Shown here: positions 16,650-31,158 of the stretch, one piece after another
Layout of the letters: every line of letters starts with the position of its first letter
Numbering within the stretch: position 1 is the stretch's first letter
Position numbers and translations under genes: made by a program
The notes under the pieces: model-generated
What the model was told of the DNA's origin: nothing
The model's database searches: none
What the model saw: only the letters and a program-made list of their open reading frames with translations
Assembly: GCA_030426085.1 (NCBI GenBank)
Contig: JAUHYW010000012.1
Span: 2,425 to 66,424 of the forward strand
Reading direction: 5' to 3'
Source of the DNA: a bacterium
GTDB lineage: Bacteria > Myxococcota_A > Bradymonadia > UBA7976 > UBA1532
Length of the DNA stretch: 64,000 nt

Positions 16650-18536
16650 TCACTCCTGAGCGAAGTCCCACTTCGAGCGATCACAGGTCGCCGCGAAGCC
16701 ATAGCGATCGCCGGCCACCGCCGTGCCCTGGGCCTCGGAGCCTTCGAGGTAGTACACGAAGTCGAGCTGGCGGTCGGGGCGCTCCATCTCGGTGGCGAAG
16801 ACCCGGGCGATCTCGTTGGCCGGCAGGGTCTTGCGGCCGGCGACGACCACCGGGGGGATGCGCAGGCCGGGGGTGCCGTGGCGGGCGCGGTAGGCCCGCC
16901 AGACCAGCTCGGTGCACACCAGCGCGTGGTCGGTGGCGAAGTCGAAGTCGAAGTCGTAGGGCCGGCCGAGCTGGCGGAAGGCGAAGTCGATGGCCCGGGC
17001 CTTGGTCCAGGCCGGCAGGCGGGGGCGCAGGGCGACGAGGTAGTCCCCGGCGGCCGACTTCAGCGTGCTCTGCACCACGCCCTCGCTGATGGCTTCGATG
17101 ATGGGCAGCGATCCGCCGGACGCCTCGGCCTTCTCCATCGCCTGCCACGCGGCCGGGTAGCGCCGCTCGATATAGGCGGTGAAGCGCTCGGCGCGGCCGG
17201 TGCGGCGCTCGATCCAGGCGGTGACGGTGGGGTCGTCGTCGAAGGCGGCGGCCAGCTCGGCCCGGGTGCCGACCCACAGCAGCGCGTGGGGCCAGAAGCC
17301 GGGCAGGCCCACGTTGCTGAGGTACCAGTTCTTGCGGGCCAGCATGACGTCGCCCGGGGCCAGCGCGCCCCGCATCTCGTCCAGCGCCTCGGGGTCGATG
17401 AGGTAGCGCCCCTTGCGCTTGACCTTGAAGTCGCCGAGGAAGGCGGCCACCCCGGCCTGCACCGGGAAGGTCCGCGCCTTGACCTCGCGCATCAGCGGGC
17501 CCAGATCGGCCCCGACGCTGGTGGCCGCCATCTCGAGGGTGCCCTTGTCGTCGAGCCGCTCCAGCCGGGCCCGCACGTCGTCCCACAGCGCGCCGTAGCC
17601 CCGGGCCCGGGCGTCGACGTCCGACCCGTGGGCCATCGCCAGCCACTGCTGATAGCGCTTGCCGGCGGTCACCCGCGCCAGATCGGTCAGGCCCAGCAGC
17701 TCTTCGCGGACCCAGGTGACCGACCCCGCGCGCAGCCCCCGGTCGCGGCGGCCGAGCTCGAGCAGCTTGACGACGTTGGGGTTGCGGTCGAGCAGGCCGA
17801 TGATGGCGGCGGTGTGCGCGTAGAGGGCCAGCTCGGCGGCGAAGGTCAGCAGGAAGCTGCGGACGTGGCGGTCCCGCTCGGGCCGGGAGAGGTCGAAGGC
17901 GAAGTAGTCTTCGTAGAACGCCCGGATCTGGTCCAGGGCGAAGGCGGTGTCGACGAAGCCGGCCCAGACGTCGATGACGAAGCGCTCCTCGTCGGCGGTG
18001 GCCACCCGGGGCGGGGCGCCGTCGGCGGGGAAGAGGTCGACCCGGCCTTCGAGCGCCCGGTGCAGGCCGGCGAGGGTCGCCGAGAGCTGGGCCACCTGCG
18101 TCCGGTCGGCCTCGAACCCGGCGTGGAACGTGTGCTTCGACATCCGGGTGAGCGGCTTGGGCGCGCCGATCCAGTGCACCGTGACCCGCACCACGCCGCC
18201 GACGAGCAGCAGCGCGGTCAGCGCGACGATGCGCCGGCGACCGACCTCCCGGCCGGCGTAGGGCCCGATGAGGAAGAGCCCGGCGATCATCGCCACGAGG
18301 GCCAGCATGCCGACCCCGATCAGGCCGCCGAGCATCTGGGGCAGCCAGCGGGTGCCGGCGTCGGCCAGCCAGTAGCCGGCGATCGAGCCGATGCCCAGCA
18401 GGATGATGGCGGCGCCGAGGCCGAACAGGATCTGACCGGCGCGGTACGAGCGGCGGGGCGCGGGGCGGGGCCGCGGTTCGGGGGCGGACACCTCGGGCGG
18501 CAGCGAGACCGGTCGGGGGCGGCGCAGGCGCTTCAT
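16650..18536 (-). CDS. Membrane protein with a C-terminal YiiX/DUF830-like permuted papain-fold domain
   Basis: 628 aa. ATG start, N-terminal Arg/Pro-rich region, then three TM helices. The C-terminal region GDVMLARKNWYLSNV...GDYLVALRP...DHALVCTELVWRAYR resembles permuted NlpC/P60-type amidases. Confidence 0.45.
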   Translation of the reverse strand: MKRLRRPRPVSLPPEVSAPEPRPRPAPRRSYRAGQILFGLGAAIILLGIGSIAGYWLADAGTRWLPQMLGGLIGVGMLALVAMIAGLFLIGPYAGREVGRRRIVALTALLLVGGVVRVTVHWIGAPKPLTRMSKHTFHAGFEADRTQVAQLSATLAGLHRALEGRVDLFPADGAPPRVATADEERFVIDVWAGFVDTAFALDQIRAFYEDYFAFDLSRPERDRHVRSFLLTFAAELALYAHTAAIIGLLDRNPNVVKLLELGRRDRGLRAGSVTWVREELLGLTDLARVTAGKRYQQWLAMAHGSDVDARARGYGALWDDVRARLERLDDKGTLEMAATSVGADLGPLMREVKARTFPVQAGVAAFLGDFKVKRKGRYLIDPEALDEMRGALAPGDVMLARKNWYLSNVGLPGFWPHALLWVGTRAELAAAFDDDPTVTAWIERRTGRAERFTAYIERRYPAAWQAMEKAEASGGSLPIIEAISEGVVQSTLKSAAGDYLVALRPRLPAWTKARAIDFAFRQLGRPYDFDFDFATDHALVCTELVWRAYRARHGTPGLRIPPVVVAGRKTLPANEIARVFATEMERPDRQLDFVYYLEGSEAQGTAVAGDRYGFAATCDRSKWDFAQE

Positions 18537-18736
18537 GGGGGCTCCGTGGTCGCCGGGCGGGGGGCACGATAGCGCAGCCGGGCGCCTGGATCAGCCCCTC
18601 CCGGTCGGGGGCAGGGGGTGCCTCGATCTGCACCCCCCGCCCCCGCAGCGGGCTGCGCTTCTCGGCCGACGCGCGTTTCGAGAAGCTGGCTCCAGGGCTC
18701 ATAAAGCAATCACAGCCCACATTCCCAGGAGGTCCC

Positions 18737-19939
18737 ATGCGCTCTGCTCTGCTCACCCTCGCGCTCGCCGCCCCGCTGGCCGGCGCGCTCTCCAGCTGCA
18801 CCGGCGACCCCGCCGACTGCGCCGACTGCCTCACCCCCGACAGCGCACCCGATATCGGGCCCGACGGCGGCCCCGAGGTGCCCGGCGAGCCGGCCTGCCT
18901 CGACGCCCTCCCGCCGGTCGATCTGCTGCTGGTCATCGACGACAGCGGCTCGATGTGCGAGGAGCAGGCGGCGGTGGGCGGCGCGTTCGACGCCATGCAG
19001 ACGGCCCTCGATGGCTATGACTGGCGCCTGGCGGTCGTCACCACCGACATGCACCCCGACAACCGCTGGCGGGCGACGTTCGGCAAGCCCTCGGCGCTGC
19101 CGGTGCCCTCGCTCAACTGCGCCGACGCCGACGGCGAGCCGGCGGTGCCCGACACCGTCGACTGCGAGGCCGAGGCCCCGCCCGTGCTCGACCCGGGCCC
19201 GCTCGACAAGGCCACCGCCGCCCGCCGCTTCCGGTGCATGGTGAACGTGGGCACCCAGGGCGACGGCTTCGAGAAGCCGCTGGCCGCGGCGGCCCACGCC
19301 CTGGACTGCGAGGGGCCCAACGCCGATCTGCTCGGGCCGTGCGCCGGCGATGACGCGCCCTTCCTGCGGCCGGGGGCGGCGCTGGTGGTGGTCTACATGG
19401 GCGACGAGGACGACTGCTCCGACGGGGCGGTGCCCGAGGACGACCCCCAGATGGCCGACTGCGTCTACGACGACGCCCCGGGCGGCGCGCCGTGTCGGAT
19501 CCCGCGGTCCACCGGGGACGCCTGCGTCTGGATGGCCGACCAGCTCACCCCGGTGGGGCACTTCGTCGACGCGCTGCGCGGGGCCAACCCGACCGCGGCG
19601 GGGGTGACCGCGCTGACGCTGGCCGGGCCCCGCTTCGCGCCGGTCGACGGGCAGCCGGTGCGCTTCGTGCCCGGCGCGCGCGATCCGGCGTGCGAGGCCG
19701 AGCCGGTCAGCCCCGCGTGCTGCCCCGACGGGCTGTGCCGGGGCGAGACGGCGCCGGTGTGCGCCGGCCCGCTCGGCGAGGCGTTCGCCGGCAACCGGCT
19801 GCGGGCGATGGCCGAGGCGTTCCCCGGCGAGGGGCTGGGGGTCTCGATCTGCGAGGCCGACGCCCCGGCCGGGCTCGCCGACCGGCTCTCGCTCAAGCTC
19901 GAGCTGGCGCTGCCCCCGCCGTGCGACCCGGTGGACTGA
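18737..19939 (+). CDS. Lipoprotein with a vWA-like domain and Cys-rich C-terminal region
   Basis: AGGAGG RBS. Signal peptide plus lipobox (LAGALSSC). LLLVIDDSGSM is a vWA MIDAS-like motif. Many paired Cys in the C-terminal half. Confidence 0.55.
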   Translation: MRSALLTLALAAPLAGALSSCTGDPADCADCLTPDSAPDIGPDGGPEVPGEPACLDALPPVDLLLVIDDSGSMCEEQAAVGGAFDAMQTALDGYDWRLAVVTTDMHPDNRWRATFGKPSALPVPSLNCADADGEPAVPDTVDCEAEAPPVLDPGPLDKATAARRFRCMVNVGTQGDGFEKPLAAAAHALDCEGPNADLLGPCAGDDAPFLRPGAALVVVYMGDEDDCSDGAVPEDDPQMADCVYDDAPGGAPCRIPRSTGDACVWMADQLTPVGHFVDALRGANPTAAGVTALTLAGPRFAPVDGQPVRFVPGARDPACEAEPVSPACCPDGLCRGETAPVCAGPLGEAFAGNRLRAMAEAFPGEGLGVSICEADAPAGLADRLSLKLELALPPPCDPVD

Positions 19940-20063
19940 CGGCGCCTTCCGGCCGCCCCCCGGCTGGAGTACCCTGCGGCCGATCCGCCGATCGGAGCCC
20001 CGCATGCCGCGCTCTCGCCCGCCCGCCGACGATCCGCGCCCGACCGCGCGCGCGCGCCGTCCG

Positions 20064-21197
20064 ATGCCACCCCGATCCCACGCGGCGGGCCTCGCGCTGC
20101 TCGCGTTGGCGCTGTGCAGCCCGGCCCGGGCGGCGGACTATGCCTTCGCCCTGGCCGGCGAGGTGTGGCCCGACGATCACGTCCCGGGGCATGGCATCGC
20201 CCTGGCTGCCGTCGACTTCGAGCCATGGGTCGCCGAGGGCCGCCCGTCGATCGTGCTCAACACCGACACCCTGCGGTTGGGGCTGAGCGAGATGCGCCTG
20301 GGAGAGCGGTGGCGCCTGGGGGTCGGGCTGGCCGGGGAGTATGGCATCGCCGGGCTGCTGACCGACTACTACGTCGAGGGCGAGGCGGTGCCCGACCGGG
20401 GCTTTCTGGCGAGCTACGCCGAGGCCGAGGTCCGGGTGAAGCGGCTGTTCGACGGCGGCGCGTGGAGCGAGCTGGCCGTGACCGGGCGGCGGTGGTTCTT
20501 CGACCGGGCCGACAACACGGCCGACGACCTGGTCCTGCCGCCGGAGGCCTGGGTGCTCATGCCCCGGCTGCACCTGGGCTGGTGGGGGCTGGCCGACGAC
20601 GCCGGCTGGCGGGCCCGGCACCGGCTCTTCCCCCGGCTGCGGGGCTTCGCGGCGGGCGTCGATCTGGGGGTCGACCTGCGCAGCGACTCGAGCGCGTGGG
20701 GCGGCCTGGGCGCGGGCGACGGGCGGGCCGATCGCAACGACCCGATGGCGGTGATCCCCATCGCCCGCCAGTGGCTGCGGGCGGGGCTGCCGCTGGGCGG
20801 GCGGCTGCGGGTCGAGGTCGAGCAGCAGGCCGGCTTCGGGGTCGGCGAGGACGACCTCACCCGGGCCCGGGTGGGCGGGGCGAACCCCTACGTGGTGCAG
20901 GTGCCCGGCGCGCCGTGGGCCGCGTGGCTGGCCGATCGCTTCGTCGCCGGGCGGCTGGCGCTGCCGGTGCGGGCCTTCGCCGACGTCGAGATCGCGCCGA
21001 CCGCCGCCGCGGTGTGGCTGCGCGACCCCCAGCGAGAGGGCGGGGACGCGATGGGGCTGGTGTGGGGCGCCGGGGCGACGGTCGACGCTCGCTTCGGCCG
21101 GTGGCAGGTCGATCTGCGGGGCGGAGTGAGCCCGTCGCTGGCCGACGATCTGGCGTGGAGCGCCTACCTCGGGGTCGGCTGGGGCACCGGCGGCTGA
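20064..21197 (+). CDS. Secreted hypothetical protein, possibly an outer-membrane beta-barrel
   Basis: ATG at 20064. Signal peptide MPPRSHAAGLALLALALCSPARA. Alternating hydrophobic patterns, Trp/Gly-rich. An in-frame alternative upstream start lies at 20004. Confidence 0.4.
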   Translation: MPPRSHAAGLALLALALCSPARAADYAFALAGEVWPDDHVPGHGIALAAVDFEPWVAEGRPSIVLNTDTLRLGLSEMRLGERWRLGVGLAGEYGIAGLLTDYYVEGEAVPDRGFLASYAEAEVRVKRLFDGGAWSELAVTGRRWFFDRADNTADDLVLPPEAWVLMPRLHLGWWGLADDAGWRARHRLFPRLRGFAAGVDLGVDLRSDSSAWGGLGAGDGRADRNDPMAVIPIARQWLRAGLPLGGRLRVEVEQQAGFGVGEDDLTRARVGGANPYVVQVPGAPWAAWLADRFVAGRLALPVRAFADVEIAPTAAAVWLRDPQREGGDAMGLVWGAGATVDARFGRWQVDLRGGVSPSLADDLAWSAYLGVGWGTGG

Positions 21198-21200
21198 GGC

Positions 21201-22865
21201 TCAGCGTTCGAGGCGCGCGCCCGACCAGTCGAGGTGCAGCCGGCCGTCGCGGTAGATCCGGCCGGTGGCCGCCAGATCGGTGCTCTCGGCGTCGATCCGA
21301 CGGTGTACGTTCTCCGGCGGGGTCAGCACGGTGTCCCGGCCGAGGTCGAACCGCTGGGCGGGCAGCAGCGCCCGGTAGGCCCGGTTCAGCGCCAGCGCCC
21401 GGGCCCGCGACGGCAGGATCAGGTCGCCCATGTCACCCGGACCGCCCGGCGCGGCTCGGCGGACCCGGGCCTCGTCGAGCGCGCCGTCGGGCCAGAACCG
21501 GGCCCGCAGCTCAGCGTTGCTGCGGAACTCGTCGCCCCCGTCCACCCGGCGGAACCAGGTGAGCGTCTCGGGCTCGGCGTGGCCCGCCTGGGGCACGTCG
21601 GGCATGCCTTCGACGTCCTGCATCGCCCAGCCCGCCGCGCCGGGCACCTTGCGGGCGAACGAGAAGGTGCTGTCGACGGTGACCGAGAGCGCCGTATGGC
21701 ACCCCATGCAATAGAGCTGCTCTTCGGCGGTCTGCACCCGCAGGCGACCCTCGGCGTCTTCGATGAAGCCCTGGAGCTGCCAGCCGAAGTCATTGCGCAG
21801 CCCGACCTCGGCGTCGCCGGTGTAGCGGGGCAGGATGCCGCGCTCCTTGGCGTCCAGCTCTTCGGCGTAGGCCCGCTGCCGGCCCCAGCGATCGACCGCC
21901 TGCCGCTTGATGGCGTAGCGCAGCTCCTTCAGCCGGGTCGCGAGGTGCCCCGGCGCGTCGGGGTCGAGGTAGCGCACCGGGTGCAGGAACTCCACGCCCG
22001 GGGGGTACAGCAGCCGCTCGACCGGCACGTCGGCCGCCCCGCCGATGTAGTGGCTCGGCAGTGATCGGATGACATGCGCGACGCCGTAGGTGCCATCACC
22101 GTCGAGGTCGTGCCCCGCCCGCCGCTCGTCGACCGGCTCGACCCGGCGGGCGGGCACCTCGGCCTTCGGATCGGCCGCGATGGCCGCCTCGAGGATCGCG
22201 AGGTTGGCCCGATACACCGCCCGCGAGGCGTGCCCGTCGGCGTCGGCCCGGAAGGGCGCCGGCAGCCGCACGAAGACATCGCCGACGCTGCCGTTGCTGG
22301 GCCAGAACGTGCCGGGGAACGGCTTGAACCGCACCGCCCGCCAGCCGCTGCCGTCCCGGGCGAAGCCGTCGCCGTCCACCCCCCGGTGCAGGTCGAGGTC
22401 GGGCACGTAGCCCGGGTAGTCGCCCCGCCCGATCAGGGCCATCCGCAGCGGGGTGTAGTTGTCGGTCCGGATCCAGTCGAGGATGTCGGCCTCGCCCCGG
22501 TCGGGCGCCGGCCGCTCGGCGAACAGGTTGTGCCAGCGGTTGGTGCGGGCGAAGTCGGAGAACGCGTAGGCCGCCTGCAAGGGCCAGTCGACCTGCTCGT
22601 TGGGGCCGATGCCCTCGGCGTGGCAGGTCCAGCACGGGTTGGCGACGCCCGCGGTCCGGGTGTAGCAGGCCGGGGGCACCACCGCCTCGCCGTTGGCGAT
22701 CTCGAGCCCGGCGGCCCGGACCTGCGCCAGCGGGTCGTAGGCCGCCGGGGCCTCACCCGACGACGCGGCGCGCATCGGCGGCGGGGTGCGCGGCGTGGGG
22801 TCGCCGGGCAGGCAGCCGGCGAGCCCGGCGGCGATCAGCAGCAGCGTCTTCGGACCGCGGGTCAT
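21201..22865 (-). CDS. Di-haem c-type cytochrome lipoprotein
   Basis: 554 aa. Lipobox LAGC. Two CxxCH haem-binding motifs, CWTCH and CMGCH. Separated by only 4 bp from the upstream PhoX-like gene, so probably co-transcribed. Confidence 0.6.
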   Translation of the reverse strand: MTRGPKTLLLIAAGLAGCLPGDPTPRTPPPMRAASSGEAPAAYDPLAQVRAAGLEIANGEAVVPPACYTRTAGVANPCWTCHAEGIGPNEQVDWPLQAAYAFSDFARTNRWHNLFAERPAPDRGEADILDWIRTDNYTPLRMALIGRGDYPGYVPDLDLHRGVDGDGFARDGSGWRAVRFKPFPGTFWPSNGSVGDVFVRLPAPFRADADGHASRAVYRANLAILEAAIAADPKAEVPARRVEPVDERRAGHDLDGDGTYGVAHVIRSLPSHYIGGAADVPVERLLYPPGVEFLHPVRYLDPDAPGHLATRLKELRYAIKRQAVDRWGRQRAYAEELDAKERGILPRYTGDAEVGLRNDFGWQLQGFIEDAEGRLRVQTAEEQLYCMGCHTALSVTVDSTFSFARKVPGAAGWAMQDVEGMPDVPQAGHAEPETLTWFRRVDGGDEFRSNAELRARFWPDGALDEARVRRAAPGGPGDMGDLILPSRARALALNRAYRALLPAQRFDLGRDTVLTPPENVHRRIDAESTDLAATGRIYRDGRLHLDWSGARLER

Positions 22866-22869
22866 CGGC

Positions 22870-25272
22870 TCACCCCTCGAACGGCCAGCCGCTGAACACG
22901 CCCTCGCCGGGGTGCTGCACGCTGAAGAACAGCGTGCCCATGGCCGAGGTCAGCGCGGGCCCGGTGGCCTCGGCGTCGCTCGGCGCGGCGACCACCCGGA
23001 ACGGCCGCCCGTAGGTGGCCTCGACCACCCCCGGGGCGCCCTCCATGTGGGCCGGGTCGAGGTCGAGGTAGTAGATCGCGTCGGCGGTGCCGTTGCGCCC
23101 GAAGTTGCCGTCGGTGCCGAACCACAGCCCGCCGTCGCCGTCGACGAGCAGGTTGTCGGGGTTGGCGACGTCGTACAGCCCGGTGCCGGCGGTGCCGACC
23201 CACACCAGCCCGTAGCTGAAGGTGAGGCTGCTGGCCGGATCGGCCGGATCGGCCTCGGTGATCGCGAAGATCGAGCCGTCGGCGTCCTCCCGCACCGGGG
23301 CCTCCTCGGGCTGGGTCTCGGGGTCGTAGACCCGGCCCTCGGCGTCGAGCGCGGTCTGGCGCCCGTGCTTGGTGAAGGCCACGTACAGCCGGGGGGTGCC
23401 GCTGGGGTCGCGGGGGTTCCACTCGACGTCCTCGGGGCGGTTCTGCTCCATGACCCCGATCTTGTTGGCCGCGGTGTACAGCGCCCGGCGCACCATCGTG
23501 TCGTCGGGGAAGCCGCCGATGCGGTTGTAGTCCAGGTCGCGCAGCGCCTCGCCGACGGTGACGCCCGGCCGGCCGAGCGCCGCCCCGTTGGGGGCCTCGT
23601 CGGCGCTGTCGACGCTCATCTCGATCCACCGGCCCTGCGCCGCTTCGAAGCCGTAGGGCAGCGCGTCGCCGACGGTGAAGCCGGTGTGGTTGTCGAGCCC
23701 CTCGAGGTGGGCGACGTACAGCGTGCCGTCGGCCAGCAGGGCCCGGGTCTCGGCCTTGCTCATGCCCGCCCGCCACGGCTCGGCGGTGACGAACTTGTAG
23801 ATGCGGCCCCCGCGGCGGTCGTTGGCCGCGTAGAGCACGATCGGGCGCCCGTCGAGCAGGCCCCAGTCCTCGTCGACGACGAAGGTGGCGTTCTCCCAGC
23901 GGGCCCGGCCGACGGCGCCCAGCTTCTGGTGGCCGACGCCCGCCTCGGACTTGCCGAGCCACTCGCCGGGGGCCACGCCGGGGTCGATCTCGGTCAGGTA
24001 GCCGTAGGCGTCGCGGTCGTGGTGCTCCCAGGCGTCGGCGATGAGCCCGAAGGCCGAGGCGTCGCTGGTGCCATAGGTCGGGCTCACCTCGGATCCGGCG
24101 TCGAAGCCGGCCCCGGGCACGAAGCGCATGCGGCTGGTCCAGGCGGTCTCGAGGTCGCCGTAATAGTCCTGCACGTTCTCCTCGGCGGTGATGACCGTGC
24201 CCCACGGGGTCTGGGCCCCCGAGCAGTCCCCGGCGATGCCCGGGGCGATGCCCTCGGGCAGCAGGGTGCCCTCGTCGGTGTGCTGGCGGCCGGCGAGCGG
24301 CTGGCCGGTGACCGCGAGCAGGGTCTTGCTGGTGGCGTCGTAGCGCACCGCGCCGGCGCTGCGGTCGAGCTGCCACTCGCCGGTGGACGGGTCGCGCACC
24401 GCCCGCATCCACGAGCCGCCGATGCTGCGCTTGAACCACCGGAGCTGGGTGTCGACCGCCGCCTGGGGCCAGGTCATCGCGGTGACGTCGTTGTCGAGCA
24501 GGCCCACCGCCCGCAGCCAGCGGGCGAGGGTGAGCTGCTGGCCGGTCGGGGCCGAGGCCGGGGTCGGGATGTCGTTGCTGATGTACTCGTGGTTGACCCA
24601 CAGCCAGCCGATGTCATCGGCGCCGTTCCACTGGGGCGGCGCGCCCTCGACGGCGTCCCAACCGTCGCCGAACCACGCCACGTAGTCCGCGTTGGCCCCG
24701 AAGCGGGGGGCGAGCGGGTCGTCGTCGTAGGTCAGCGGGTCGAGCCAGCGCACCACGACGCTGGTCTGCGTGCCGGCGATGGCCCGCACGGCGTCGGTGC
24801 TGGCGTTGGCCAGGGGGAACCCGGCCGGGGCCTCGCCGGCCGCGACCCGCTCCACCCGCTCGCGGACCAGCGCGCCGAGGTCGTCGGCGCCCAGCGCGCT
24901 GACCGCCACCAGCGACGAGCGGGGCGGCGCGGTGGACAGGGGGTTGCTGGTCGGCCCGGCCGGGCCCCGGGCCCCGTCGGCGCCGTCGGCGCCGTCGGCC
25001 CCATCGACGCCGTCCAGCCCGTCGACCCCGTCCAGCCCGTCGGCCCCGTCCCGGCCGTCGCGCCCGTCCCGACCGTCGGCGCCGTCCACCCCGTCGGTCC
25101 CCTCCCGGCCGTCGCGCCCGTCGGCCCCGGTCGAGCCCTGAGCCCCGACCGGCCCGGTGGCGCCCTGGGGCCCGGCGACGCCCGGCGCGCCGTCGTCCCC
25201 GTCCGCGCCACATCCGGCCAGGCTCAGCGCCATCGCGAGCCCCGCCACGGTCCATGCAGCCATCCTCGGCAT
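22870..25272 (-). CDS. Lipoprotein carrying an N-terminal collagen-like GXY repeat fused to a PhoX/DUF839-like beta-propeller domain
   Basis: ATG at 25270-25272. Signal peptide MPRMAAWTVAGLAMALSLAGC. About 28 uninterrupted GXY triplets (GAPGVAGPQGATGPVGAQGSTGADGRDGREGTDGVDGADGRDG...). PhoX-like motifs follow (VITAEENVQDYYGD, DNLLVDGDGGLWFGTDGN). Confidence 0.7.
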   Translation of the reverse strand: MPRMAAWTVAGLAMALSLAGCGADGDDGAPGVAGPQGATGPVGAQGSTGADGRDGREGTDGVDGADGRDGRDGRDGADGLDGVDGLDGVDGADGADGADGARGPAGPTSNPLSTAPPRSSLVAVSALGADDLGALVRERVERVAAGEAPAGFPLANASTDAVRAIAGTQTSVVVRWLDPLTYDDDPLAPRFGANADYVAWFGDGWDAVEGAPPQWNGADDIGWLWVNHEYISNDIPTPASAPTGQQLTLARWLRAVGLLDNDVTAMTWPQAAVDTQLRWFKRSIGGSWMRAVRDPSTGEWQLDRSAGAVRYDATSKTLLAVTGQPLAGRQHTDEGTLLPEGIAPGIAGDCSGAQTPWGTVITAEENVQDYYGDLETAWTSRMRFVPGAGFDAGSEVSPTYGTSDASAFGLIADAWEHHDRDAYGYLTEIDPGVAPGEWLGKSEAGVGHQKLGAVGRARWENATFVVDEDWGLLDGRPIVLYAANDRRGGRIYKFVTAEPWRAGMSKAETRALLADGTLYVAHLEGLDNHTGFTVGDALPYGFEAAQGRWIEMSVDSADEAPNGAALGRPGVTVGEALRDLDYNRIGGFPDDTMVRRALYTAANKIGVMEQNRPEDVEWNPRDPSGTPRLYVAFTKHGRQTALDAEGRVYDPETQPEEAPVREDADGSIFAITEADPADPASSLTFSYGLVWVGTAGTGLYDVANPDNLLVDGDGGLWFGTDGNFGRNGTADAIYYLDLDPAHMEGAPGVVEATYGRPFRVVAAPSDAEATGPALTSAMGTLFFSVQHPGEGVFSGWPFEG

Positions 25273-25598
25273 GCCATCTCTCCCTGCTTCGGTCCGCGTC
25301 CATCGCGGCGCGCGCAGGGTGGGCCCGCTCGGTGACCGGGCGATGGGCGGGCGGTGAAAGATCACCGACCGATCGGTGCCCGGGCGGTGGCTGCGCGATG
25401 GCATCGGTGGCAGGCGGCGGTGACGGCCGGGCGACGCATCCGGATAGGGCACACCGGATGGCGTTCATGTCACCCCAGCATCACCCGGCTGTCATGCGTC
25501 CGGTGGATGGGTCTCATGGGAGACGGGCCGTCGTCGGGTGGGTGTCGCGGGCGTGGCCGGCGGATGACGGCGGGGGCGGGTTCGAGCGGGGCGGGGCC

Positions 25599-26051
25599 TC
25601 AGCCGTCGGCCCGCACCTTGCCCTTGGTCTCGGCGACGACGAGGTCCTTGCCGGCGGCCTTCCACCCGGCGACGCCCTCCTCGAAGACGTGCACGTCGGT
25701 GTAGCCCAGGTCGACCGCGGCCAGGGCGGCCTTCTTCGAGGCGCTGCACATGGTGTTGGCGCACAGGAAGGTCATCTTGGCGCCCTTGTCGGCCCCGAGG
25801 GTCTCGGCGCTCATCGCGGCGTAGTCGACCCGCACCGCGGTGGGCAGGGTGCCGGCGGCGTAGGTCTCCTCGCTCGCGGCGTGGAACACCTTGCTGGCCT
25901 TCTGATCGATCCACGACGCGAGGGTCGTCGTGTCGACCTTCTCGTACTTCTTGGCCTCCATCGACTTCTGGCCTTCGCAGGCCAGGGCGGCGGTGGCCCC
26001 GCCGAGCACGAGGCCGGCGGTGAGGAGGGCGGCGGAGAGCTTGCGGAACAT
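25599..26051 (-). CDS. Secreted rhodanese-like domain protein
   Basis: 150 aa, ATG at 26049-26051. Signal peptide MFRKLSAALLTAGLVLGGATAALA. Active-site-like loop FLCANTMCSASKKAA with a Cys. The much longer ORF in the track is an artefactual upstream extension. Confidence 0.6.
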   Translation of the reverse strand: MFRKLSAALLTAGLVLGGATAALACEGQKSMEAKKYEKVDTTTLASWIDQKASKVFHAASEETYAAGTLPTAVRVDYAAMSAETLGADKGAKMTFLCANTMCSASKKAALAAVDLGYTDVHVFEEGVAGWKAAGKDLVVAETKGKVRADG

Positions 26052-26369
26052 GGGGACTCCCACGGGTCGGTGTGCGGCGGGCCGCCGACGGCGGCCTGTC
26101 GGGACGATGCCGGCGGCTCCCGGCGGGTTGCGGCCCCCGAGGCCCGTCGACGGACGCCGATCAGCAGAGCAGATCCCGCCCGGCGAGCGCCAGCGGACCG
26201 GCGTATCGCGCCGTATCCTCCGTATCGATCGAGCGGGCTCCGGCGTCAGTCGCTCACTCTTGCGTGACGGTGTGCCCCGAGCCCCGGTTTTCTGGCATGA
26301 TGGCCCGGCGCGGATGCTCGGAGGCCGCCTGCCCTGGACGGCCTCGGCGGTGCGCGCGTCAGGAGACCC

Positions 26370-27488
26370 ATGTCTCGTCGCCGATGGTTCATCGCAGCGG
26401 GCGCGGCCCTCGGGCTGTCGCTGGCGTATCTGCTGGCGTGGCCGGTGCCGATCGATCCGGTCGCCTGGCAGGCCCCGCCGAACCCGGGCTACGCCGGGGA
26501 CTTCGCCACGAACCGGCGCCTGGCCGACCTCGAGCTGTTCGACCTGAGCCCGTCCCACGGGCCGGAGGATCTGGCGGTCGACCGGGCGGGGCGGGTCTAC
26601 GCCGCGGTGGAGGACGGCGGCATCCTGGCGCTGACTCCCGAGGGTGGATTCGAGCGCTGGGCCGAGACCGGCGGGCGCCCGCTGGGTATCGAGTTCGGCC
26701 CCGGGCCGGGCGGCGCCGACGGGGCCGAGGTGCTGTACGTCGCCGACGCCTTCCGGGGGCTCTTGGCCATCGGCCCCGACCGGCGGCCGCGGGTGCTCGT
26801 CGACGCGGTCGACGGGGTGCCGGTGCGCTACGCCGACGACCTCGACATCGCCGACGACGGCACGCTGTACTTCAGCGACGCCTCGACGAAGTTCGCCGCG
26901 GCGGACCATGGCGGGACCTACCCGGCGAGCGTGCTCGACCTCAACGAGCACGGGGGCCACGGTCGGCTGATCGCCTACGACATCCGCTCCGGGGCGGCGC
27001 GGGTGGTGCTCGACGGCCTGCAATTCGCCAACGGGGTCGCGCTGAGCCACGACCAGCGGGCGGTCCTGATCGCCGAGACCGGCATGTATCGGGTGATCCG
27101 CTGGTGGCGCTCGGGGCCGCGGGCGGGCGAGGTCGAGCCGGTGCTGGGGCCCCTGCCCGGCTTCCCCGACAACGTGGCCCGCGGCCGCGATGGGCGCTAC
27201 TGGGTCGGGCTGACCTCGCCCCGCAGCCCGGCGCTCGACTGGGGCTGCGATGTGCCCTGGCTGCGGCGGCTGTTCGAGCGGCTGCCGGCGGCGCTCAAGC
27301 CCAAGGCGACCGCCCGCCCCCATGTGATCGCGTTCGACGATCGAGGCGCGGTGGTGGCCGATCTCCAGGATCCGGGCGGGCCGCACGCCTTCGTCACCGG
27401 GGCGCTCGAGGCGGGGGGTCACATCTATCTGAGCAGTCTGCGCGCGGGCACGCTCGCCCGGCGGCCGGCGCTCGAGGAGGCGCGATGA
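26370..27488 (+). CDS. Strictosidine-synthase / SMP-30-like six-bladed beta-propeller protein
   Basis: 372 aa. N-terminal TM/signal. Motifs GPEDLAVDRAGRVYAA, LYFSDAST, FANGVALSHDQRAVLIAET and GFPDNV are typical of the strictosidine synthase-like (APMAP) family. Confidence 0.65.
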   Translation: MSRRRWFIAAGAALGLSLAYLLAWPVPIDPVAWQAPPNPGYAGDFATNRRLADLELFDLSPSHGPEDLAVDRAGRVYAAVEDGGILALTPEGGFERWAETGGRPLGIEFGPGPGGADGAEVLYVADAFRGLLAIGPDRRPRVLVDAVDGVPVRYADDLDIADDGTLYFSDASTKFAAADHGGTYPASVLDLNEHGGHGRLIAYDIRSGAARVVLDGLQFANGVALSHDQRAVLIAETGMYRVIRWWRSGPRAGEVEPVLGPLPGFPDNVARGRDGRYWVGLTSPRSPALDWGCDVPWLRRLFERLPAALKPKATARPHVIAFDDRGAVVADLQDPGGPHAFVTGALEAGGHIYLSSLRAGTLARRPALEEAR

Positions 27489-29764
27489 GATCGATGGGCA
27501 TGGCATGGCTCGGCGCGGCGCTGCTCGCGCTGCTGGTCGGCTGTCAGCCGGCGCCGGGCGATACGTCGGCAGACGGTGGGCCCGGCGGCGACGGCGGCAG
27601 CGGCGGTGTCGGCGGGTCGGGCGGCAGCGGCGGCGCGGGCGGCGTCGGTGGATCGGGCGGGGTCGGCGGCAGCGGAGGCGCGGGCGGGGTCGGCGGCAGC
27701 GGGGGCGCGGGCGGGTCGGGCGAGCTCGACGGCGCGGCCCTGTACGCCCGGCACTGCGCCCGGTGCCACGGCCCGGCCCGCCTGGGCGGCGTCGGCCCGG
27801 CGCTGGACGCGCTCGACGGCTTCGACCACCCGGCGCTGGTCACCCGCATCGCCGAGACGATGCCCCCCGGCGACGAGATGGCCTGCGCCGGCGGCTGCGC
27901 CGAGGCGGTGGCCGACTGGCTCATCGCGCAGGCGGCGCCCCCCGAGCCGGTGGACTGCGCCGCGGCGGCGCCCGATCTGCCGCCCCGCCGCCTGCGGCTG
28001 CTGACCCGCCGAGAGTACGACGCCGCGGTGACCGATCTGCTGTGGCCCGGCGCGGCCGACGGGGCGGTGTGCGGCGAGGTGACCTTCGAGTTCCCGGCCG
28101 ACGGCGAGCCGGGGGCCCGCACGGTGCACGTGGCCGGCACCTTCAACGACTGGGCCCCGACGCTGGCCGAGGGCGGGCTGGCGATGGACCGCGGCGCCGA
28201 CGGGATCTGGCGGCTGACGGCCCGGGTCGGCGAGGGCACCCACCGCTACAAGTTCGTGGTCGACGAGGCCCGCTGGTACCCCGACCCGGGCAACGACTGG
28301 CGGGAGAACGACGGCTTCGGCGGCCAGAACTCGGTGATCGAGCTGCGCTGCGACGGGGCCGGCGGGCCCGGCGGGCGGCCCTCCCGCGACCTGCCGCCCG
28401 AGACCCGCCCCGCCGAGTTCGCGTTCGACAACCACGCCGCCTCGGCCCAGGTGACCACGGTGCACCTCGAGGCGTACCTCGAGGCGGCCGAGGGGCTGGC
28501 CGACGACGCGCTGGACGCCCTGCCCTGTCGGGACTGCGCCGATCGGCTGGTCGATACGCTGGCCCCCCGGGCCTTCCGCCGGCCGCTGACCGCCGACGAG
28601 CGGGCCCGCTACCGGGCGCTCTTCGACGGGGTCGAGTGGGACGTCGGCGCCCGGCGCTTCCTGATCGCGGTGCTGGGCTCGCCGCACTTCCTGTATCGCA
28701 GCGAGCTGGGCGCGCCGGCCGGGGACGGCACCTGGCGCCTCACCGGGGCCGAGGCGGCGACCGCGCTGGCGTTCTTCGTGTGGGGCACGCTGCCCGACGC
28801 CGCGCTGGTGCAGGCCGCCGCGGCCGGCGAGTTGGACGACGCCGACGGCCTCGAGCGCCACGCCCGACGGCTGCTGGCCGACGACCGGGCCCGGGCCGTG
28901 GTGGGCAGCTTCGCCGAGCAGTGGCTGGGCATCGAGCCCTTGCCCGAGGCGGTGCGGGTCGACCCGGCGCTCGACGGCAACCTGCGGGGCGCGATGCTGG
29001 CCTCGACCCGGCGCTTCGTCTCGTCGGTGGTCTTCGACGGGCCCCACGACTTCGCCAGCCTGCTCACCGCCGATCACACGTTCGTCAACGCCGCGCTCGC
29101 GGCCCACTACGGCATCGACGGCGTCGACGGCGCCGCGCTGCGCCGGGTCGAGGCTCCGCCCGAGCGGCGGGGGGGCGTCCTGGGGCACGGCAGCGTGCTG
29201 GCGGTCCAGGCCCACGCCGACCAGTCGTCCCCCATCCGGCGGGGGCTCTTCGTGCGGCGCACGCTCTTGTGCCAGGAGCTGCCCCCGGCCCCGCCCAACG
29301 CGGGCGGGGTGCCCGACGTCGACCCCCAGGCGACGACCCGGGCGCGGTTCCGGCAGCACACCGACGACCCGTTCTGTCATAGCTGCCACCGCTACATCGA
29401 CGACGTGGGCTTCGGCTTCGAGCACTTCGACGCCGTCGGCCGCTGGCGGGCGACCGAGAACGGCCACCCGATCGACGCGCTGGGCGACATGAACGACGTC
29501 GAGGGGCTGGGCAGCGGCACCGCGGCGCCCTACGAGGGCCTCGACGCGCTGGGCGACATCCTCGCCGACAGCGCCGCGGCCCGGCTGTGCTTCGTGCGTC
29601 AGGTGCGCCGCTTCGCGCTGGGCGTGCTCGAGGGCGAGGCGGCGGCGTGCGACATCGAGCGGCTGGCGGACGACTGGGCCGCCACCGGAGACGACATCCG
29701 CGAGCTGATGGTGCTCGTCGTGCGCGATCCGGCGTTCACCCACCGCCGGGAGGAGGGCCCGTGA
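27485..29764 (+). CDS. DUF1592/DUF1588/DUF1595-family lipoprotein (PSCyt/PSD type) with a Gly-Ser repeat linker and a CBM48/AMPK-beta-like insert
   Basis: 759 aa. Start overlaps the upstream stop as ATGA. Lipobox LVGC, a (GGSGGXGG)n linker, and a cytochrome-like CxxCH (CARCH). VHVAGTFNDWAP...YKFVVDEARWYPDP is a glycogen-binding-domain-like segment. The conserved C-terminal DUF1588/1592 blocks FCHSCH and DDVGFGFEHFD are present. Confidence 0.7.
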   Translation: MRSMGMAWLGAALLALLVGCQPAPGDTSADGGPGGDGGSGGVGGSGGSGGAGGVGGSGGVGGSGGAGGVGGSGGAGGSGELDGAALYARHCARCHGPARLGGVGPALDALDGFDHPALVTRIAETMPPGDEMACAGGCAEAVADWLIAQAAPPEPVDCAAAAPDLPPRRLRLLTRREYDAAVTDLLWPGAADGAVCGEVTFEFPADGEPGARTVHVAGTFNDWAPTLAEGGLAMDRGADGIWRLTARVGEGTHRYKFVVDEARWYPDPGNDWRENDGFGGQNSVIELRCDGAGGPGGRPSRDLPPETRPAEFAFDNHAASAQVTTVHLEAYLEAAEGLADDALDALPCRDCADRLVDTLAPRAFRRPLTADERARYRALFDGVEWDVGARRFLIAVLGSPHFLYRSELGAPAGDGTWRLTGAEAATALAFFVWGTLPDAALVQAAAAGELDDADGLERHARRLLADDRARAVVGSFAEQWLGIEPLPEAVRVDPALDGNLRGAMLASTRRFVSSVVFDGPHDFASLLTADHTFVNAALAAHYGIDGVDGAALRRVEAPPERRGGVLGHGSVLAVQAHADQSSPIRRGLFVRRTLLCQELPPAPPNAGGVPDVDPQATTRARFRQHTDDPFCHSCHRYIDDVGFGFEHFDAVGRWRATENGHPIDALGDMNDVEGLGSGTAAPYEGLDALGDILADSAAARLCFVRQVRRFALGVLEGEAAACDIERLADDWAATGDDIRELMVLVVRDPAFTHRREEGP

Positions 29765-31158
29765 GCGACGTGAACCAGAAGACCCGCGGGCCGCGGATCT
29801 CCCGCCGCCGCTTCTTGCAGGCGGCCGCGGCCGGGGCGGCGCTGCCCGGCACGCTGGGGCTGCTGGGGGGCGAGGCCCGGGCCCAGGCCGGCGGGGCCCG
29901 GCGGTTCCTGGTGTTCTACTTCCCCGACGGGGTGCCCGGCGACAGCCAGGAGGGCGACCGCAGCCTGTGGCACATCCACGAGGGCGGCGAGGCCGACTTC
30001 GCCCTGCCCGACCTGCTCGCCCCGCTGGCGCCGTACCGCGATCGCTCGGTGTTCTTCCGGGGGCTGTCGATGGGCGACGCCGACAACGGCAGCCACCCCG
30101 GCGGGGCCCAGAAGCTGCTGACCGCGGTCGACCGGGGCAACGGGGAGAGCGTCGACCGGGTGCTCGCCCGCACCATCGGCGCCGAGGCGCCCCACCGCCA
30201 CGTCTACCTCGGGGTGCAGGCGGCGCCCGGCGGGGCCTCGGGCGACAAGGCGATCAGCTACGTGGCCCCGGGCAACACCGTCGCCGCCCAGGACGACCCG
30301 GTGCAGGCGTTCGGGCGGCTCTTCGGCGGCGGGCTGGCGGTCGAGCCGGGCGCGCCGCCGGTGGACGTGCGCCAGGCGACCCGGCGCAGCGTGCTCGACG
30401 TGATGCGGGCCGACCTCGAGAGCCTGCGGGGGCGGGTCGCCGGGCGGGCCCGCAGCCGGCTCGAGCTGCACCTCGACGCGGTGCGCGAGCTGGAGCTGCG
30501 GCTGGCCCCGATGGCCGACCCCGACCCGCCGCCGCAGATGGGCGACCGCTGCGCGCAGGTGCCGGCCCCGGTGGCGGCCATCGATCAGGGCGCGCTGTAC
30601 GACCCGGCGCGGTTCCCGGCCATCCTCGAGGCCCAGACCGAGGTGATGGTGCGGGCGATGGCCTGCGGGCTAACCCGGGTGGGCGTCATCCAGTGCAGCC
30701 ACCACACCACCGACCTGCTGATGAGCGCCTTCCCCGGCACGCCGATGGCCGCCGAGGGCATCTACATGCGCAGCCACGAGGCGTCGCACTACGGGGCCCG
30801 GCACGATCTCGGCGACCCCAAGTTCCGCTCGTTCGTGGCCCAGCGGCGGTGGTTCATCGAGCGCTACGCGGCCCTGCTCGGGCGGCTGGCCGAGATGCCC
30901 GAGGGCGACGGCACGATGCTCGATCACACGGTGGTGCTGTTGTGCACCGAGGTGTGCGACGGCAACACCCACCAGCACCACGACATGCCGTTCGTCGTCT
31001 CGGGCGGCGAGGCGGGCGGGGTGCGCACCGGGCGGCTGCTGCGCTTCGGGTTCCGGCGCCACGGCGACCTCTACGCCGGCCTGGGCCGCGCCCTGGGCGC
31101 CGACTTCGCCCGCTTCGGCGACGCCGGCGAAGGCCCCCTGCCCGGATTGGTGGCGTAA
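29761..31158 (+). CDS. DUF1552 domain protein with Tat signal, partner of the DUF1592 protein
   Basis: 465 aa with a GTG start overlapping the upstream stop as GTGA. Twin-arginine signal SRRRFLQAAAAGAALPG. Conserved DUF1552 blocks FYFPDGV and CSHHTTD...HEASHYG. Confidence 0.7.
   Translation: MSDVNQKTRGPRISRRRFLQAAAAGAALPGTLGLLGGEARAQAGGARRFLVFYFPDGVPGDSQEGDRSLWHIHEGGEADFALPDLLAPLAPYRDRSVFFRGLSMGDADNGSHPGGAQKLLTAVDRGNGESVDRVLARTIGAEAPHRHVYLGVQAAPGGASGDKAISYVAPGNTVAAQDDPVQAFGRLFGGGLAVEPGAPPVDVRQATRRSVLDVMRADLESLRGRVAGRARSRLELHLDAVRELELRLAPMADPDPPPQMGDRCAQVPAPVAAIDQGALYDPARFPAILEAQTEVMVRAMACGLTRVGVIQCSHHTTDLLMSAFPGTPMAAEGIYMRSHEASHYGARHDLGDPKFRSFVAQRRWFIERYAALLGRLAEMPEGDGTMLDHTVVLLCTEVCDGNTHQHHDMPFVVSGGEAGGVRTGRLLRFGFRRHGDLYAGLGRALGADFARFGDAGEGPLPGLVA

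What the first reader, a model, noticed from the sequence alone, without database searches (positions are those of the whole stretch)
24927..25272. Bacterial collagen-like triple-helix repeat fused to a PhoX/DUF839-like lipoprotein
After a lipoprotein signal (LSLAGC), about 28 uninterrupted Gly-X-Y triplets (GAPGVAGPQGATGPVGAQGSTGADGRDGREGTDGVDGADGRDGRDGRDGADGLDGVDGLDGVDGADGADGADGARGPAGP) precede a PhoX-like beta-propeller domain. The X-Y positions are dominated by Asp/Arg rather than Pro, as in streptococcal Scl proteins.

This implies a trimeric stalk presenting three PhoX-like heads at the cell surface. The repeat is also a nucleotide-level repeat prone to length variation.
Basis: partly seen in the sequence, partly recalled or inferred. 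Interest (0 to 1): 0.55.

Follow-up and report, generated by a model that had tools for sequence, protein, structure and literature searches.

The report
Collagen-stalked PhoX-like lipoprotein with haem partner
A soil-type (myxobacterial) gene encodes a phosphatase-like enzyme tethered to a lipid anchor by a 29-triplet collagen-like stalk, and it always travels with an uncharacterised two-haem protein. The design recurs in many public genomes but no searchable paper describes it.

Summary
Window 22870-25272 (minus strand) encodes an 800-aa protein with four parts:
- a lipoprotein signal (lipobox LAGC, Cys21);
- 29 uninterrupted Gly-X-Y triplets starting at the residue after the Cys (aa 22-108, nt 24949-25209);
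- an 11-residue linker;
- a PhoX-fold beta-propeller (Pfam PF05787 1e-51; Foldseek to P. fluorescens PhoX E 1e-30, TM 0.74) that keeps every motif shared with that enzyme.

The design is not unique. About half of the close homologues carry a lipobox Cys followed by 6-33 GXY triplets; one has 91. They come from Sorangium, Polyangium, Nannocystis, Myxococcus, Sandaracinaceae, Planctomycetota and Alteromonas. Sequence and length vary freely but Gly periodicity is kept, which argues for a real triple helix.

- This PhoX lineage lacks the Tat signal that 49 of 50 actinobacterial PhoX genes carry.
- It is followed, in 29 of 33 loci, by a 554-aa lipoprotein with two invariant CxxCH haem motifs and no known fold.

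Trimer formation, surface exposure and phosphatase activity remain inferences. I rate it a new variant of known kinds, of moderate interest.

The parts
22870..25272 (-). Whole gene: 800-aa collagen-stalked PhoX-like lipoprotein (stop codon 22870-22872).
   Evidence: ORF list. Pfam PhoX and Collagen matches. Identical 800-aa gene call on Logan contig L083.
25280..25284 (-). Shine-Dalgarno-like GGGAG, 7 nt upstream of the ATG.
   Evidence: Read directly from the sequence.
25213..25272 (-). Signal peptide aa 1-20 (MPRMAAWTVAGLAMALSLAG): n-region with Arg3, a 14-residue hydrophobic core, and lipobox L-A-G preceding Cys. No twin-arginine motif.
   Evidence: Sequence. Homologous N-termini align on the lipobox Cys.
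25210..25212 (-). Cys21, the predicted lipidated +1 residue of the mature protein. The +2 residue is Gly.
   Evidence: Lipobox pattern [LVI][ASTVI][GAS]C. The Cys column is conserved in the stalked homologues.
24949..25209 (-). Collagen-like region: 29 uninterrupted Gly-X-Y triplets (aa 22-108). If triple-helical it would be about 25 nm long.
   Evidence: Pfam PF01391 match. Matches to collagen chains in PDB sequences.
24970..25138 (.). Degenerate DNA tandem repeat underlying the GxD triplets. Periods: 9 nt (14 copies, 68% matches), 18 nt (8.5 copies, 75%), 54 nt (2.1 copies, 88%).
   Evidence: Tandem Repeats Finder. The repeat finder. The longest exact repeat is 20 nt.
24916..24948 (-). Linker aa 109-119 (SNPLSTAPPRS) between the last triplet and the first propeller strand (SLVAVS).
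   Evidence: Alignment A1. AF2 model strand 120-126.
22873..24915 (-). PhoX-fold beta-propeller head, aa 120-800, with the conserved motifs DCSGxQTPWGT..EEN, EIDP, GRARWEN, DDRR..IYKF, NRPED, TDGN and QHPGE.
   Evidence: Pfam match 1.2e-51. Alignment to 3zwu. AF2 pLDDT above 90. Foldseek to 4a9v E 1.3e-30, target-normalised TM 0.74. Invariant columns in A1.
24223..24225 (-). Cys350, aligned with Cys179 of P. fluorescens PhoX. Cys179 is the iron-ligating Cys by my recollection of Yong et al. 2014.
   Evidence: HMMER alignment. Invariant in 34 family sequences.
21201..22865 (-). Co-oriented downstream partner gene, 4 nt after the stop codon. It encodes a 554-aa lipoprotein (lipobox LAGC) with two invariant c-type haem motifs, CWTCH (78-82) and CMGCH (386-390). 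Precomputed Pfam family PF27085 Aq_1262.
   Evidence: No PDB sequence or fold match.

Best explanation
The gene encodes a Sec-exported, lipid-anchored enzyme built as anchor, stalk and head.

Shown from sequence:
- A type-II (lipoprotein) signal peptide ends in LAGC.
- The residue after the Cys begins 29 uninterrupted Gly-X-Y triplets.
- Eleven residues after the last triplet, a PhoX-fold propeller begins. It keeps all motifs shared with the Fe/Ca alkaline phosphatase PhoX.

Inferred:
- After lipidation of Cys21, three chains zip their GXY regions into an acidic, hydroxyproline-free collagen triple helix of about 25 nm. It would be stabilised as in streptococcal Scl2, by polar and charged residues.
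- The product would be a nine-acyl-chain anchor, a rigid rod, and three splayed phosphoesterase heads held away from the membrane. This would be a bacterial counterpart of collagen-tailed acetylcholinesterase or the collectins.
- The heads hydrolyse phosphate esters to scavenge phosphate.
- The protein is exported unfolded (there is no Tat signal), so its Fe/Ca cofactor must be assembled outside the cytoplasm. The co-transcribed di-haem c-type lipoprotein is proposed to serve that assembly or the redox upkeep of the iron site. This is the weakest step.
- Stalk length drifts quickly by gain and loss of whole triplets.
For: Anchor and stalk:
- Lipobox followed by 29 GXY triplets.
- Pfam Collagen match above threshold.
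- The shuffle control never exceeds 12 triplets.

Selection on Gly periodicity rather than on sequence:
- 68 of the 120 closest homologues have 6-31 triplets right after a lipobox Cys.
- All but two of those 68 runs are a single uninterrupted run.
- X/Y content ranges from GPx-rich to GxD-rich.
- The same design occurs in Myxococcia, Polyangia, Sandaracinaceae, Planctomycetota and Alteromonas.
- It also occurs in about half of the full-length 50%-identity cluster representatives, with up to 64+27 triplets.

Length changes in whole triplets: 12 versus 31 triplets between heads that are about 90% identical.

Head:
- PF05787 match at 1e-51.
- AF2 pLDDT above 90.
- The only strong PDB fold match is PhoX.
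- Residues aligned to PhoX C179, E193/E194, E251/D253, E273, D292, R385, D494 and H551/E554 are identical and invariant in the family.

Export route: Tat motifs occur in 49 of 50 actinobacterial PhoX loci but are essentially absent from this lineage.

Partner:
- It is adjacent in 29 of 33 lineage loci and in 0 of 50 actinobacterial PhoX loci.
- Both CxxCH motifs are invariant.
- The gap between the two genes is 4 nt.
Against: - No trimerisation or nucleation domain was detected next to the GXY run. Published bacterial collagens usually have one (PMC8968730).
- P. fluorescens PhoX is monomeric, by my recollection.
- The run carries a net charge of -14 per chain, and Asp in the Y position is a low-propensity residue in host-guest studies (my recollection of Persikov et al. 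2000).
- Some lineage members have no stalk. Others carry a different spacer at the same place: a G/A/S-rich linker in L018, poly-Gly in P0263, PKD domains in P0115. So any spacer may be enough.
- The monomer AF2 model cannot report on a triple helix; pLDDT is below 50 there.
- No phosphate-regulon genes lie nearby in the window.
- Nothing shows what the partner does.
- The side of the membrane on which the protein sits is unknown.
Confidence: 0.55

Rival explanations
1. The GXY run is a monomeric, extended, highly acidic spacer (polyproline-II-like or disordered), not a triple helix. Its job would only be to distance the head from the membrane or to help lipoprotein sorting. The Gly periodicity would be a by-product of expanding 9-nt units.
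For: - Other spacers occupy the same position in relatives: a G/A/S-rich linker in L018, poly-Gly in P0263, PKD domains in P0115. Many relatives have none.
- A neighbouring lipoprotein in this window has a (GGX)17 tether.
- No trimerisation domain was found.
- Net charge is -14 per chain.
- The DNA shows 9-, 18- and 54-nt periodicity.
- Disordered N-terminal linkers are common in outer-membrane lipoproteins (bioRxiv 10.1101/2021.01.05.425367, listed; I saw only the start of its abstract).
Against: - A disordered spacer does not need Gly at every third residue. Yet over a thousand triplets in 68 homologues are essentially uninterrupted, while X/Y identities, codons and lengths diverge.
- Gly codons in the window copy are mixed (GGG 16, GGC 12) and the DNA repeat is only 68-88% self-identical. 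The periodicity is therefore maintained, not freshly duplicated.
- Pro-rich GPx variants typical of true collagens occur in orthologues such as P0022 and L016.
Confidence: 0.25
2. The head is not a phosphate-scavenging phosphatase. Together with the di-haem cytochrome it would form a two-component redox enzyme, for example oxidising a reduced phosphorus compound or another substrate at the Fe site and passing electrons to the haems. The stalk would behave as in the main explanation.
For: - The head is strictly coupled to a di-haem c-type protein, which is never seen beside the actinobacterial Tat-type PhoX genes.
- It is only 22% identical to characterised PhoX and about 140 aa longer.
- Published work warns that PF05787 contains many paralogues that are not true PhoX (PMC12594817).
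- Weak phosphite oxidation by P. fluorescens PhoX has been reported (PMC12704751).
- No Pho-regulon genes lie nearby.
Against: - Every motif shared with PhoX, including the Cys aligned to C179, is invariant. The simplest reading is therefore the same Fe/Ca phosphotransfer chemistry.
- In Polyangium jinanense the pair sits within 8 kb of glycerophosphodiester phosphodiesterase and metallophosphoesterase genes.
- The partner has no recognisable oxidoreductase fold.
Confidence: 0.2
3. The repeat is a neutral low-complexity expansion or an assembly or annotation artefact in a 74% G+C genome, with no structural role.
For: - The genome is very GC-rich (73.8%) and has long spurious antisense ORFs.
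- This exact protein is absent from the 15-billion-sequence collection.
Against: - The sequence is identical in an independent assembly.
- The run is in frame with a strong Pfam domain.
- The same architecture recurs across several phyla.
Confidence: 0.03

Closest known systems
Pseudomonas fluorescens alkaline phosphatase PhoX (PDB 3ZWU/4A9V; Pfam PF05787)
   Same: - Same beta-propeller fold (Foldseek E 1e-30, target-normalised TM 0.74).
- All shared motifs are conserved, including the Cys aligned to C179.
- Both are exported enzymes.
   Different: - Only 22% identical, with a head about 140 aa longer.
- No Tat signal (Sec/lipoprotein signal instead).
- Has an N-terminal lipid anchor and a collagen stalk.
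- Has an obligate-looking di-haem partner gene.
- Activity is untested.
Streptococcus pyogenes Scl1/Scl2 collagen-like surface proteins
   Same: - Uninterrupted GXY run without hydroxyproline.
- Few Pro and many charged residues; GxD triplets are frequent.
- Triplet number varies between strains.
- 'Lollipop' logic of a stalk plus a head.
   Different: - Scl proteins belong to a Gram-positive organism and are anchored at the C-terminus by LPXTG, with an N-terminal V domain that nucleates the trimer.
- The Scl head is an adhesin, not an enzyme.
- NCBIfam SclB scores 52.7 bits against a cut-off of 325, so this protein is not a member.
Burkholderia Bucl8 (collagen-like region in an outer-membrane efflux lipoprotein)
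   Same: A Gram-negative envelope protein in which a collagen-like run is grafted onto a non-adhesin functional module (PMC8968730).
   Different: - Bucl8's trimeric state is set by its efflux-channel fold.
- By my recollection, its collagen run is (GAS)n and extracellular at the other end of the protein.
- It has no enzyme head.
Collagen-tailed acetylcholinesterase (ColQ), collectins and C1q (animals)
   Same: It would work like these: catalytic or binding heads held on a collagen triple-helical stalk that fixes them at a distance from an anchoring surface.
   Different: - No homology to these proteins.
- Animal stalks use hydroxyproline and dedicated trimerisation or attachment domains.
- Anchoring here is by lipid.
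Braun's lipoprotein Lpp
   Same: A lipid-anchored trimeric rod in the Gram-negative envelope whose length sets a distance.
   Different: - Lpp is an alpha-helical coiled coil of about 8 nm with no enzyme head.
- Stalk length here varies about three-fold among close relatives, which argues against a fixed 'ruler' role.
Bacillus BclA exosporium protein
   Same: - A collagen-like region with a C-terminal globular head.
- Triplet-number polymorphism sets filament length.
- Weak sequence match to PDB 1wck.
   Different: - The BclA head is a C1q-like trimer that nucleates folding.
- BclA has GPT repeats that are glycosylated.
- It has no lipid anchor and no enzyme.

Membership tests
Collagen triple-helix repeat (Pfam PF01391) / bacterial collagen-like proteins | Profile match above the curated threshold | tested here: met
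   48.5 bits against a cut-off of 27.2, aa 22-78 plus a second stretch.
Collagen triple-helix repeat (Pfam PF01391) / bacterial collagen-like proteins | Long uninterrupted (Gly-X-Y)n run | tested here: met
   29 triplets with no interruption. Shuffles reach 12 at most.
Collagen triple-helix repeat (Pfam PF01391) / bacterial collagen-like proteins | Gly periodicity conserved in orthologues despite divergence at X and Y | tested here: met
   68 of 120 homologues have 6-31 triplets, and 66 of those are single uninterrupted runs. Loci from several phyla show the same design.
Collagen triple-helix repeat (Pfam PF01391) / bacterial collagen-like proteins | Adjacent trimerisation or nucleation domain | tested here: not met
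   No coiled-coil, V-like or C1q-like domain was found by Pfam or NCBIfam. The head's closest relative is reported as a monomer. Clustering through the lipid anchor is only a hypothesis.
Collagen triple-helix repeat (Pfam PF01391) / bacterial collagen-like proteins | Actual trimeric triple helix (CD band near 220 nm, cooperative melting, trypsin resistance) | not testable with these tools
   Only single-chain prediction was available, and pLDDT is below 50 in the run.
PhoX alkaline phosphatase family (Pfam PF05787 / COG3211) | Profile match above the curated threshold | tested here: met
   176.9 bits against a cut-off of 24, profile positions 5-515 of 515.
PhoX alkaline phosphatase family (Pfam PF05787 / COG3211) | PhoX beta-propeller fold | tested here: met
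   AF2 model with pLDDT above 90 over aa 120-790. Foldseek to 4a9v and 3zwu gives E 1e-30, TM 0.74. The next hits have E above 1e-3.
PhoX alkaline phosphatase family (Pfam PF05787 / COG3211) | Active-site and metal-site residues conserved | tested here: met
   Residues aligned to PhoX C179, E193/E194, E251/D253, E273, D292, R385, D494 and H551/E554 are identical and invariant in 34 sequences. Which of these are metal ligands rests on my recollection of Yong et al. 2014; that paper could not be opened.
PhoX alkaline phosphatase family (Pfam PF05787 / COG3211) | Twin-arginine (Tat) export signal, typical of characterised PhoX | tested here: not met
   There is no RR motif; a lipoprotein Sec signal is present instead. 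By contrast 49 of 50 actinobacterial PhoX loci have [ST]RRxxL.
PhoX alkaline phosphatase family (Pfam PF05787 / COG3211) | Fe/Ca-dependent phosphomonoesterase activity | not testable with these tools
   This needs an enzyme assay and metal analysis.
Bacterial lipoproteins (signal peptidase II substrates) | Positively charged n-region, hydrophobic core, and lipobox [LVI][ASTVI][GAS]C | tested here: met
   MPR / MAAWTVAGLAMALS / LAG-C21. The Cys aligns with the lipobox Cys of homologues.
Bacterial lipoproteins (signal peptidase II substrates) | Final location (inner membrane, outer membrane or cell surface) | tested here: inconclusive
   The +2 residue is Gly, not the Lys associated with inner-membrane retention in M. 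xanthus (PMC3222651). No rule is known that separates periplasm-facing from surface-exposed proteins.
Streptococcal Scl1/Scl2 adhesins (NCBIfam NF038329 / NF038330) | Equivalog profile score and LPXTG anchor | tested here: not met
   52.7 bits against a cut-off of 325, and 33.7 against 400. The match covers only the GXY part, and there is no LPXTG.

The most novel reading that the evidence does not exclude
The pair would be a distinct, Sec-exported branch of the PhoX family. Its iron-calcium cofactor would be built or kept oxidised outside the cytoplasm by a dedicated di-haem cytochrome of a new fold. In many lineages the enzyme would be displayed as a trimer on a lipid-anchored, hydroxyproline-free collagen rod whose length (about 5 to 78 nm) is tuned by triplet gain and loss. 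That would be a prokaryotic equivalent of collagen-tailed enzymes.
Probability: 0.25. Interest if true: 0.7.

Novelty: new variant of a known kind. Interest (0 to 1): 0.5.

Why it matters
Published bacterial collagens are mostly adhesins, spore filaments or phage fibres. An enzyme hung on a lipid-anchored collagen stalk would extend what prokaryotic collagen is used for. It would also offer a natural, Pro-poor, very acidic triple-helix scaffold with a tunable length.

For phosphorus cycling, PhoX is regarded as a Tat-exported iron enzyme. A widespread Sec-exported lineage with a haem-protein partner raises a testable question: how is the Fe/Ca cofactor assembled outside the cell? It also means that PF05787-based counts of 'phoX' in metagenomes mix at least two biologically different systems.

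Tried and rejected
- **Literature.** Searches for PhoX + collagen-like, collagen + DUF839, bacterial collagen + lipoprotein + myxobacteria, and Aq_1262 found nothing relevant.
- **PhoX structure paper.** Yong et al. 2014 could not be opened. Other PhoX papers did not list the ligands. Ligand identity is therefore from memory plus motif conservation.
- **Partner protein.** There was no hit in local Pfam, NCBIfam, PDB sequences (single sequence and profile) or Foldseek-PDB. The weak cytochrome c'-beta resemblance (E 1.4) is not significant.
- **Third conserved gene.** All-against-all clustering of ORFs in 33 loci found only the pair. The rhodanese gene upstream is not conserved elsewhere.
- **Promoter and terminator scan.** Nothing was found.
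- **Longer ORF.** The ORF from the GTG at 25452 (860 aa) was rejected. The extra 60 residues have no counterpart in homologues, and an independent gene call gives 800 aa.
- **Antisense ORF.** The 849-aa ORF at 22786-25335 (+) was rejected as a high-GC artefact.
- **OMV lead.** The M. xanthus OMV proteome lists a 'putative alkaline phosphatase', MXAN_1389. I could not check whether it is an orthologue, so it is only a lead.
Full report
**1. What is in the sequence**

The finding lies on the minus strand. The ORF 22870-25272 encodes 800 aa beginning MPRMAAWTVAGLAMALSLAGC. A longer reading from a GTG at 25452 adds 60 residues with no counterpart in any homologue. An independent gene call on an identical Logan contig also gives 800 aa. 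An SD-like GGGAG sits 7 nt upstream of the ATG.

The N-terminus has one Arg, a 14-residue hydrophobic core and the lipobox L-A-G-C, with Cys21 as the +1 residue. Gly22 opens 29 consecutive Gly-X-Y triplets (aa 22-108, nt 24949-25209). Pfam Collagen scores 48.5 bits (cut-off 27.2) and Pfam PhoX scores 176.9 bits (cut-off 24) over aa 153-789.

Shuffling the 87 residues 20,000 times never gave more than 12 in-frame triplets. The only other long run in the six-frame translation of the window is a (GGX)17 tether in a different lipoprotein.

The Y position is Asp in 18 of 29 triplets. The X position is mostly Ala (11), then Arg (5), Val (4) and Pro (4). Net charge is -14 per chain.

The underlying DNA is a degenerate repeat:
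- period 9 nt, 68% matches;
- period 18 nt, 75% matches;
- period 54 nt, 2.1 copies, 88% matches;
- the longest exact repeat is 20 nt;
- Gly codons are mixed, GGG 16 and GGC 12.

The whole stretch 16935-27807 is 100% identical to an independently assembled contig.

**2. The head**

PDB sequence search finds P. fluorescens PhoX at E about 1e-14. An AlphaFold2 model built on 34 family sequences has pLDDT above 90 across aa 120-790. Foldseek finds only PhoX as a strong match (E 1.3e-30, target-normalised TM 0.74, 22% identity). The next hits are integrin propellers at E above 1e-3.

In the HMMER alignment the PDB chain numbering reproduces the published numbering, with the Cys at 179. The window protein has identical residues at the positions aligned with C179, E193/E194, E251/D253, E273, D292, R385, D494 and H551/E554. 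All are invariant in alignment A1. That C179 ligates iron is my recollection of Yong et al. 2014, which could not be opened.

**3. It is one member of a large, unnamed family**

Searching with the head alone returned 612 proteins. The best 120 are 54-74% identical, and about half carry PF01391 together with PF05787. Sixty-eight of the 120 have at least 6 GXY triplets (6-31, median 18) starting 0-13 residues after a lipobox Cys. Sixty-six of these are single uninterrupted runs.

Family-wide, the Y position is Asp in 36% and Pro in 27% of triplets, and the X position is mostly Ala, Gln, Glu or Pro. Genome loci show the same design in these groups:
- Sorangium (12-33 triplets);
- Polyangium (25);
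- Nannocystis (19);
- Myxococcus and Pyxidicoccus (14-23);
- Anaeromyxobacter (16);
- Sandaracinaceae (20);
- a planctomycete (11);
- Alteromonas and Pseudoalteromonadaceae (9-11).

Among representatives of 50%-identity clusters, about half of the full-length members have it. One has 64+27 triplets. Sorangium proteins with heads about 90% identical carry 12, 18, 24 or 31 triplets.

Gly periodicity is therefore preserved while sequence and length change. This is the signature expected of a triple helix, and it is the main argument for one.

Against it:
- Relatives exist with no stalk (Caldilineaceae and others).
- Some relatives carry other spacers: a G/A/S-rich linker in L018, poly-Gly in P0263, PKD domains in P0115.
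- No trimerisation domain is detectable.

**4.

(a) This lineage lacks Tat motifs. By contrast, 49 of 50 actinobacterial PhoX loci recovered in the same scan have [ST]RRxxL.

(b) Four nucleotides downstream lies a 554-aa lipoprotein gene (21201-22865). A homologue of it is adjacent in 29 of 33 lineage loci and in 0 of 50 actinobacterial PhoX loci. No third gene is conserved.

The partner has two invariant CxxCH motifs and belongs to precomputed Pfam family PF27085 'Aq_1262'. It has no match in NCBIfam, PDB sequences or PDB folds. It is best described as an uncharacterised di-haem c-type lipoprotein.

**5. Mechanism**

Shown: signal, lipobox, GXY run, PhoX fold and motifs, and gene coupling.

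Inferred:
- Cys21 is lipidated.
- Three chains form a rod of about 25 nm (87 residues at 0.286 nm rise per residue).
- Three heads are held off the membrane and hydrolyse phosphate esters.
- Sec export requires cofactor assembly outside the cytoplasm, in which the haem partner may act.

The side of the envelope is unknown. The +2 residue is Gly rather than the Lys linked to inner-membrane retention in M. xanthus (PMC3222651). The roughly three-fold variation in stalk length among close relatives fits a surface spacer better than a fixed periplasmic ruler, but this is inference.

**6. Comparison and novelty**

The protein works like collagen-tailed enzymes and collectins. It shares sequence character with Scl2 but fails the Scl family test. 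It passes the PhoX profile, fold and motif tests but not the Tat feature.

No searchable paper describes a collagen-PhoX fusion or the partner family. Databases label these proteins simply 'alkaline phosphatase PhoX' or 'DUF839'. A recent paper notes that PF05787 lumps paralogues with true PhoX (PMC12594817).

It is a new variant of known kinds, and the conserved di-haem partner is the most intriguing loose end.

Noticed in passing
window 21201-22865 (-): A 554-aa lipoprotein with two invariant CxxCH haem motifs lies immediately downstream of the PhoX-like gene. The pairing is conserved from Myxococcota to Chloroflexota, Planctomycetota and Alteromonas. It has no known fold or function (precomputed Pfam family PF27085 Aq_1262).
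   Followed up: partly
window 27575-27727 (+): A (GGX)17 Gly-rich tether lies right after the lipobox of a DUF1592/DUF1588/PSCyt-type protein. This is a second lipoprotein in the window with a long low-complexity N-terminal linker.
   Followed up: no
alignment A1: P0002, P0008, P0020, P0026, P0033, P0036, P0085 (Sorangium and relatives): These orthologues lack the N-terminal 'PLSSxVA' strand and carry a similar 'ALSSVIAxTF' segment at the extreme C-terminus instead. This looks like a circular permutation of one propeller strand.
   Followed up: no
loci L033-L082 (actinobacterial PhoX genes): In most of the 50 loci a conserved Cys-rich segment (GRSAxTCxFRCGNACAH...) lies in frame upstream of the Tat motif; whether it is translated was not checked. 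None of these loci has the di-haem partner.
   Followed up: no
L018 (Polyangiaceae MAG); L023-L025 (Alteromonas, Pseudoalteromonadaceae): L018 has a G/A/S-rich linker of about 55 residues where relatives have GXY. The gammaproteobacterial members have 9-11 triplets plus an extra module of about 55 aa containing Cys, ahead of the head.
   Followed up: no
P0265 (representative of a 50%-identity cluster): A family member has 64 + 27 GXY triplets after its lipobox. If helical, the stalk would be about 78 nm.
   Followed up: no
window 22786-25335 (+): An 849-aa antisense ORF overlaps the whole gene. This is a typical spurious ORF in DNA of 74% G+C.
   Followed up: yes
window 22873-25272 (-): The exact 800-aa protein is not in the 15-billion-sequence collection. 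Its neighbour is present at 100% identity, and the 800-aa gene is called on a Logan contig. The closest listed homologue is 74% identical. No reason was found.
   Followed up: partly
window 25599-26063 (-), 26370-27488 (+), 27500-31158 (+): The neighbouring genes are a small exported rhodanese-like protein, a strictosidine-synthase-like propeller, and a DUF1592/DUF1588 + DUF1552 pair. None is conserved next to the PhoX-like gene in other genomes.
   Followed up: partly
L001 (Polyangium jinanense), 1-1600: Glycerophosphodiester phosphodiesterase and metallophosphoesterase genes lie within 8 kb of the orthologous pair. This is a weak hint of a phosphorus-scavenging context.
   Followed up: no
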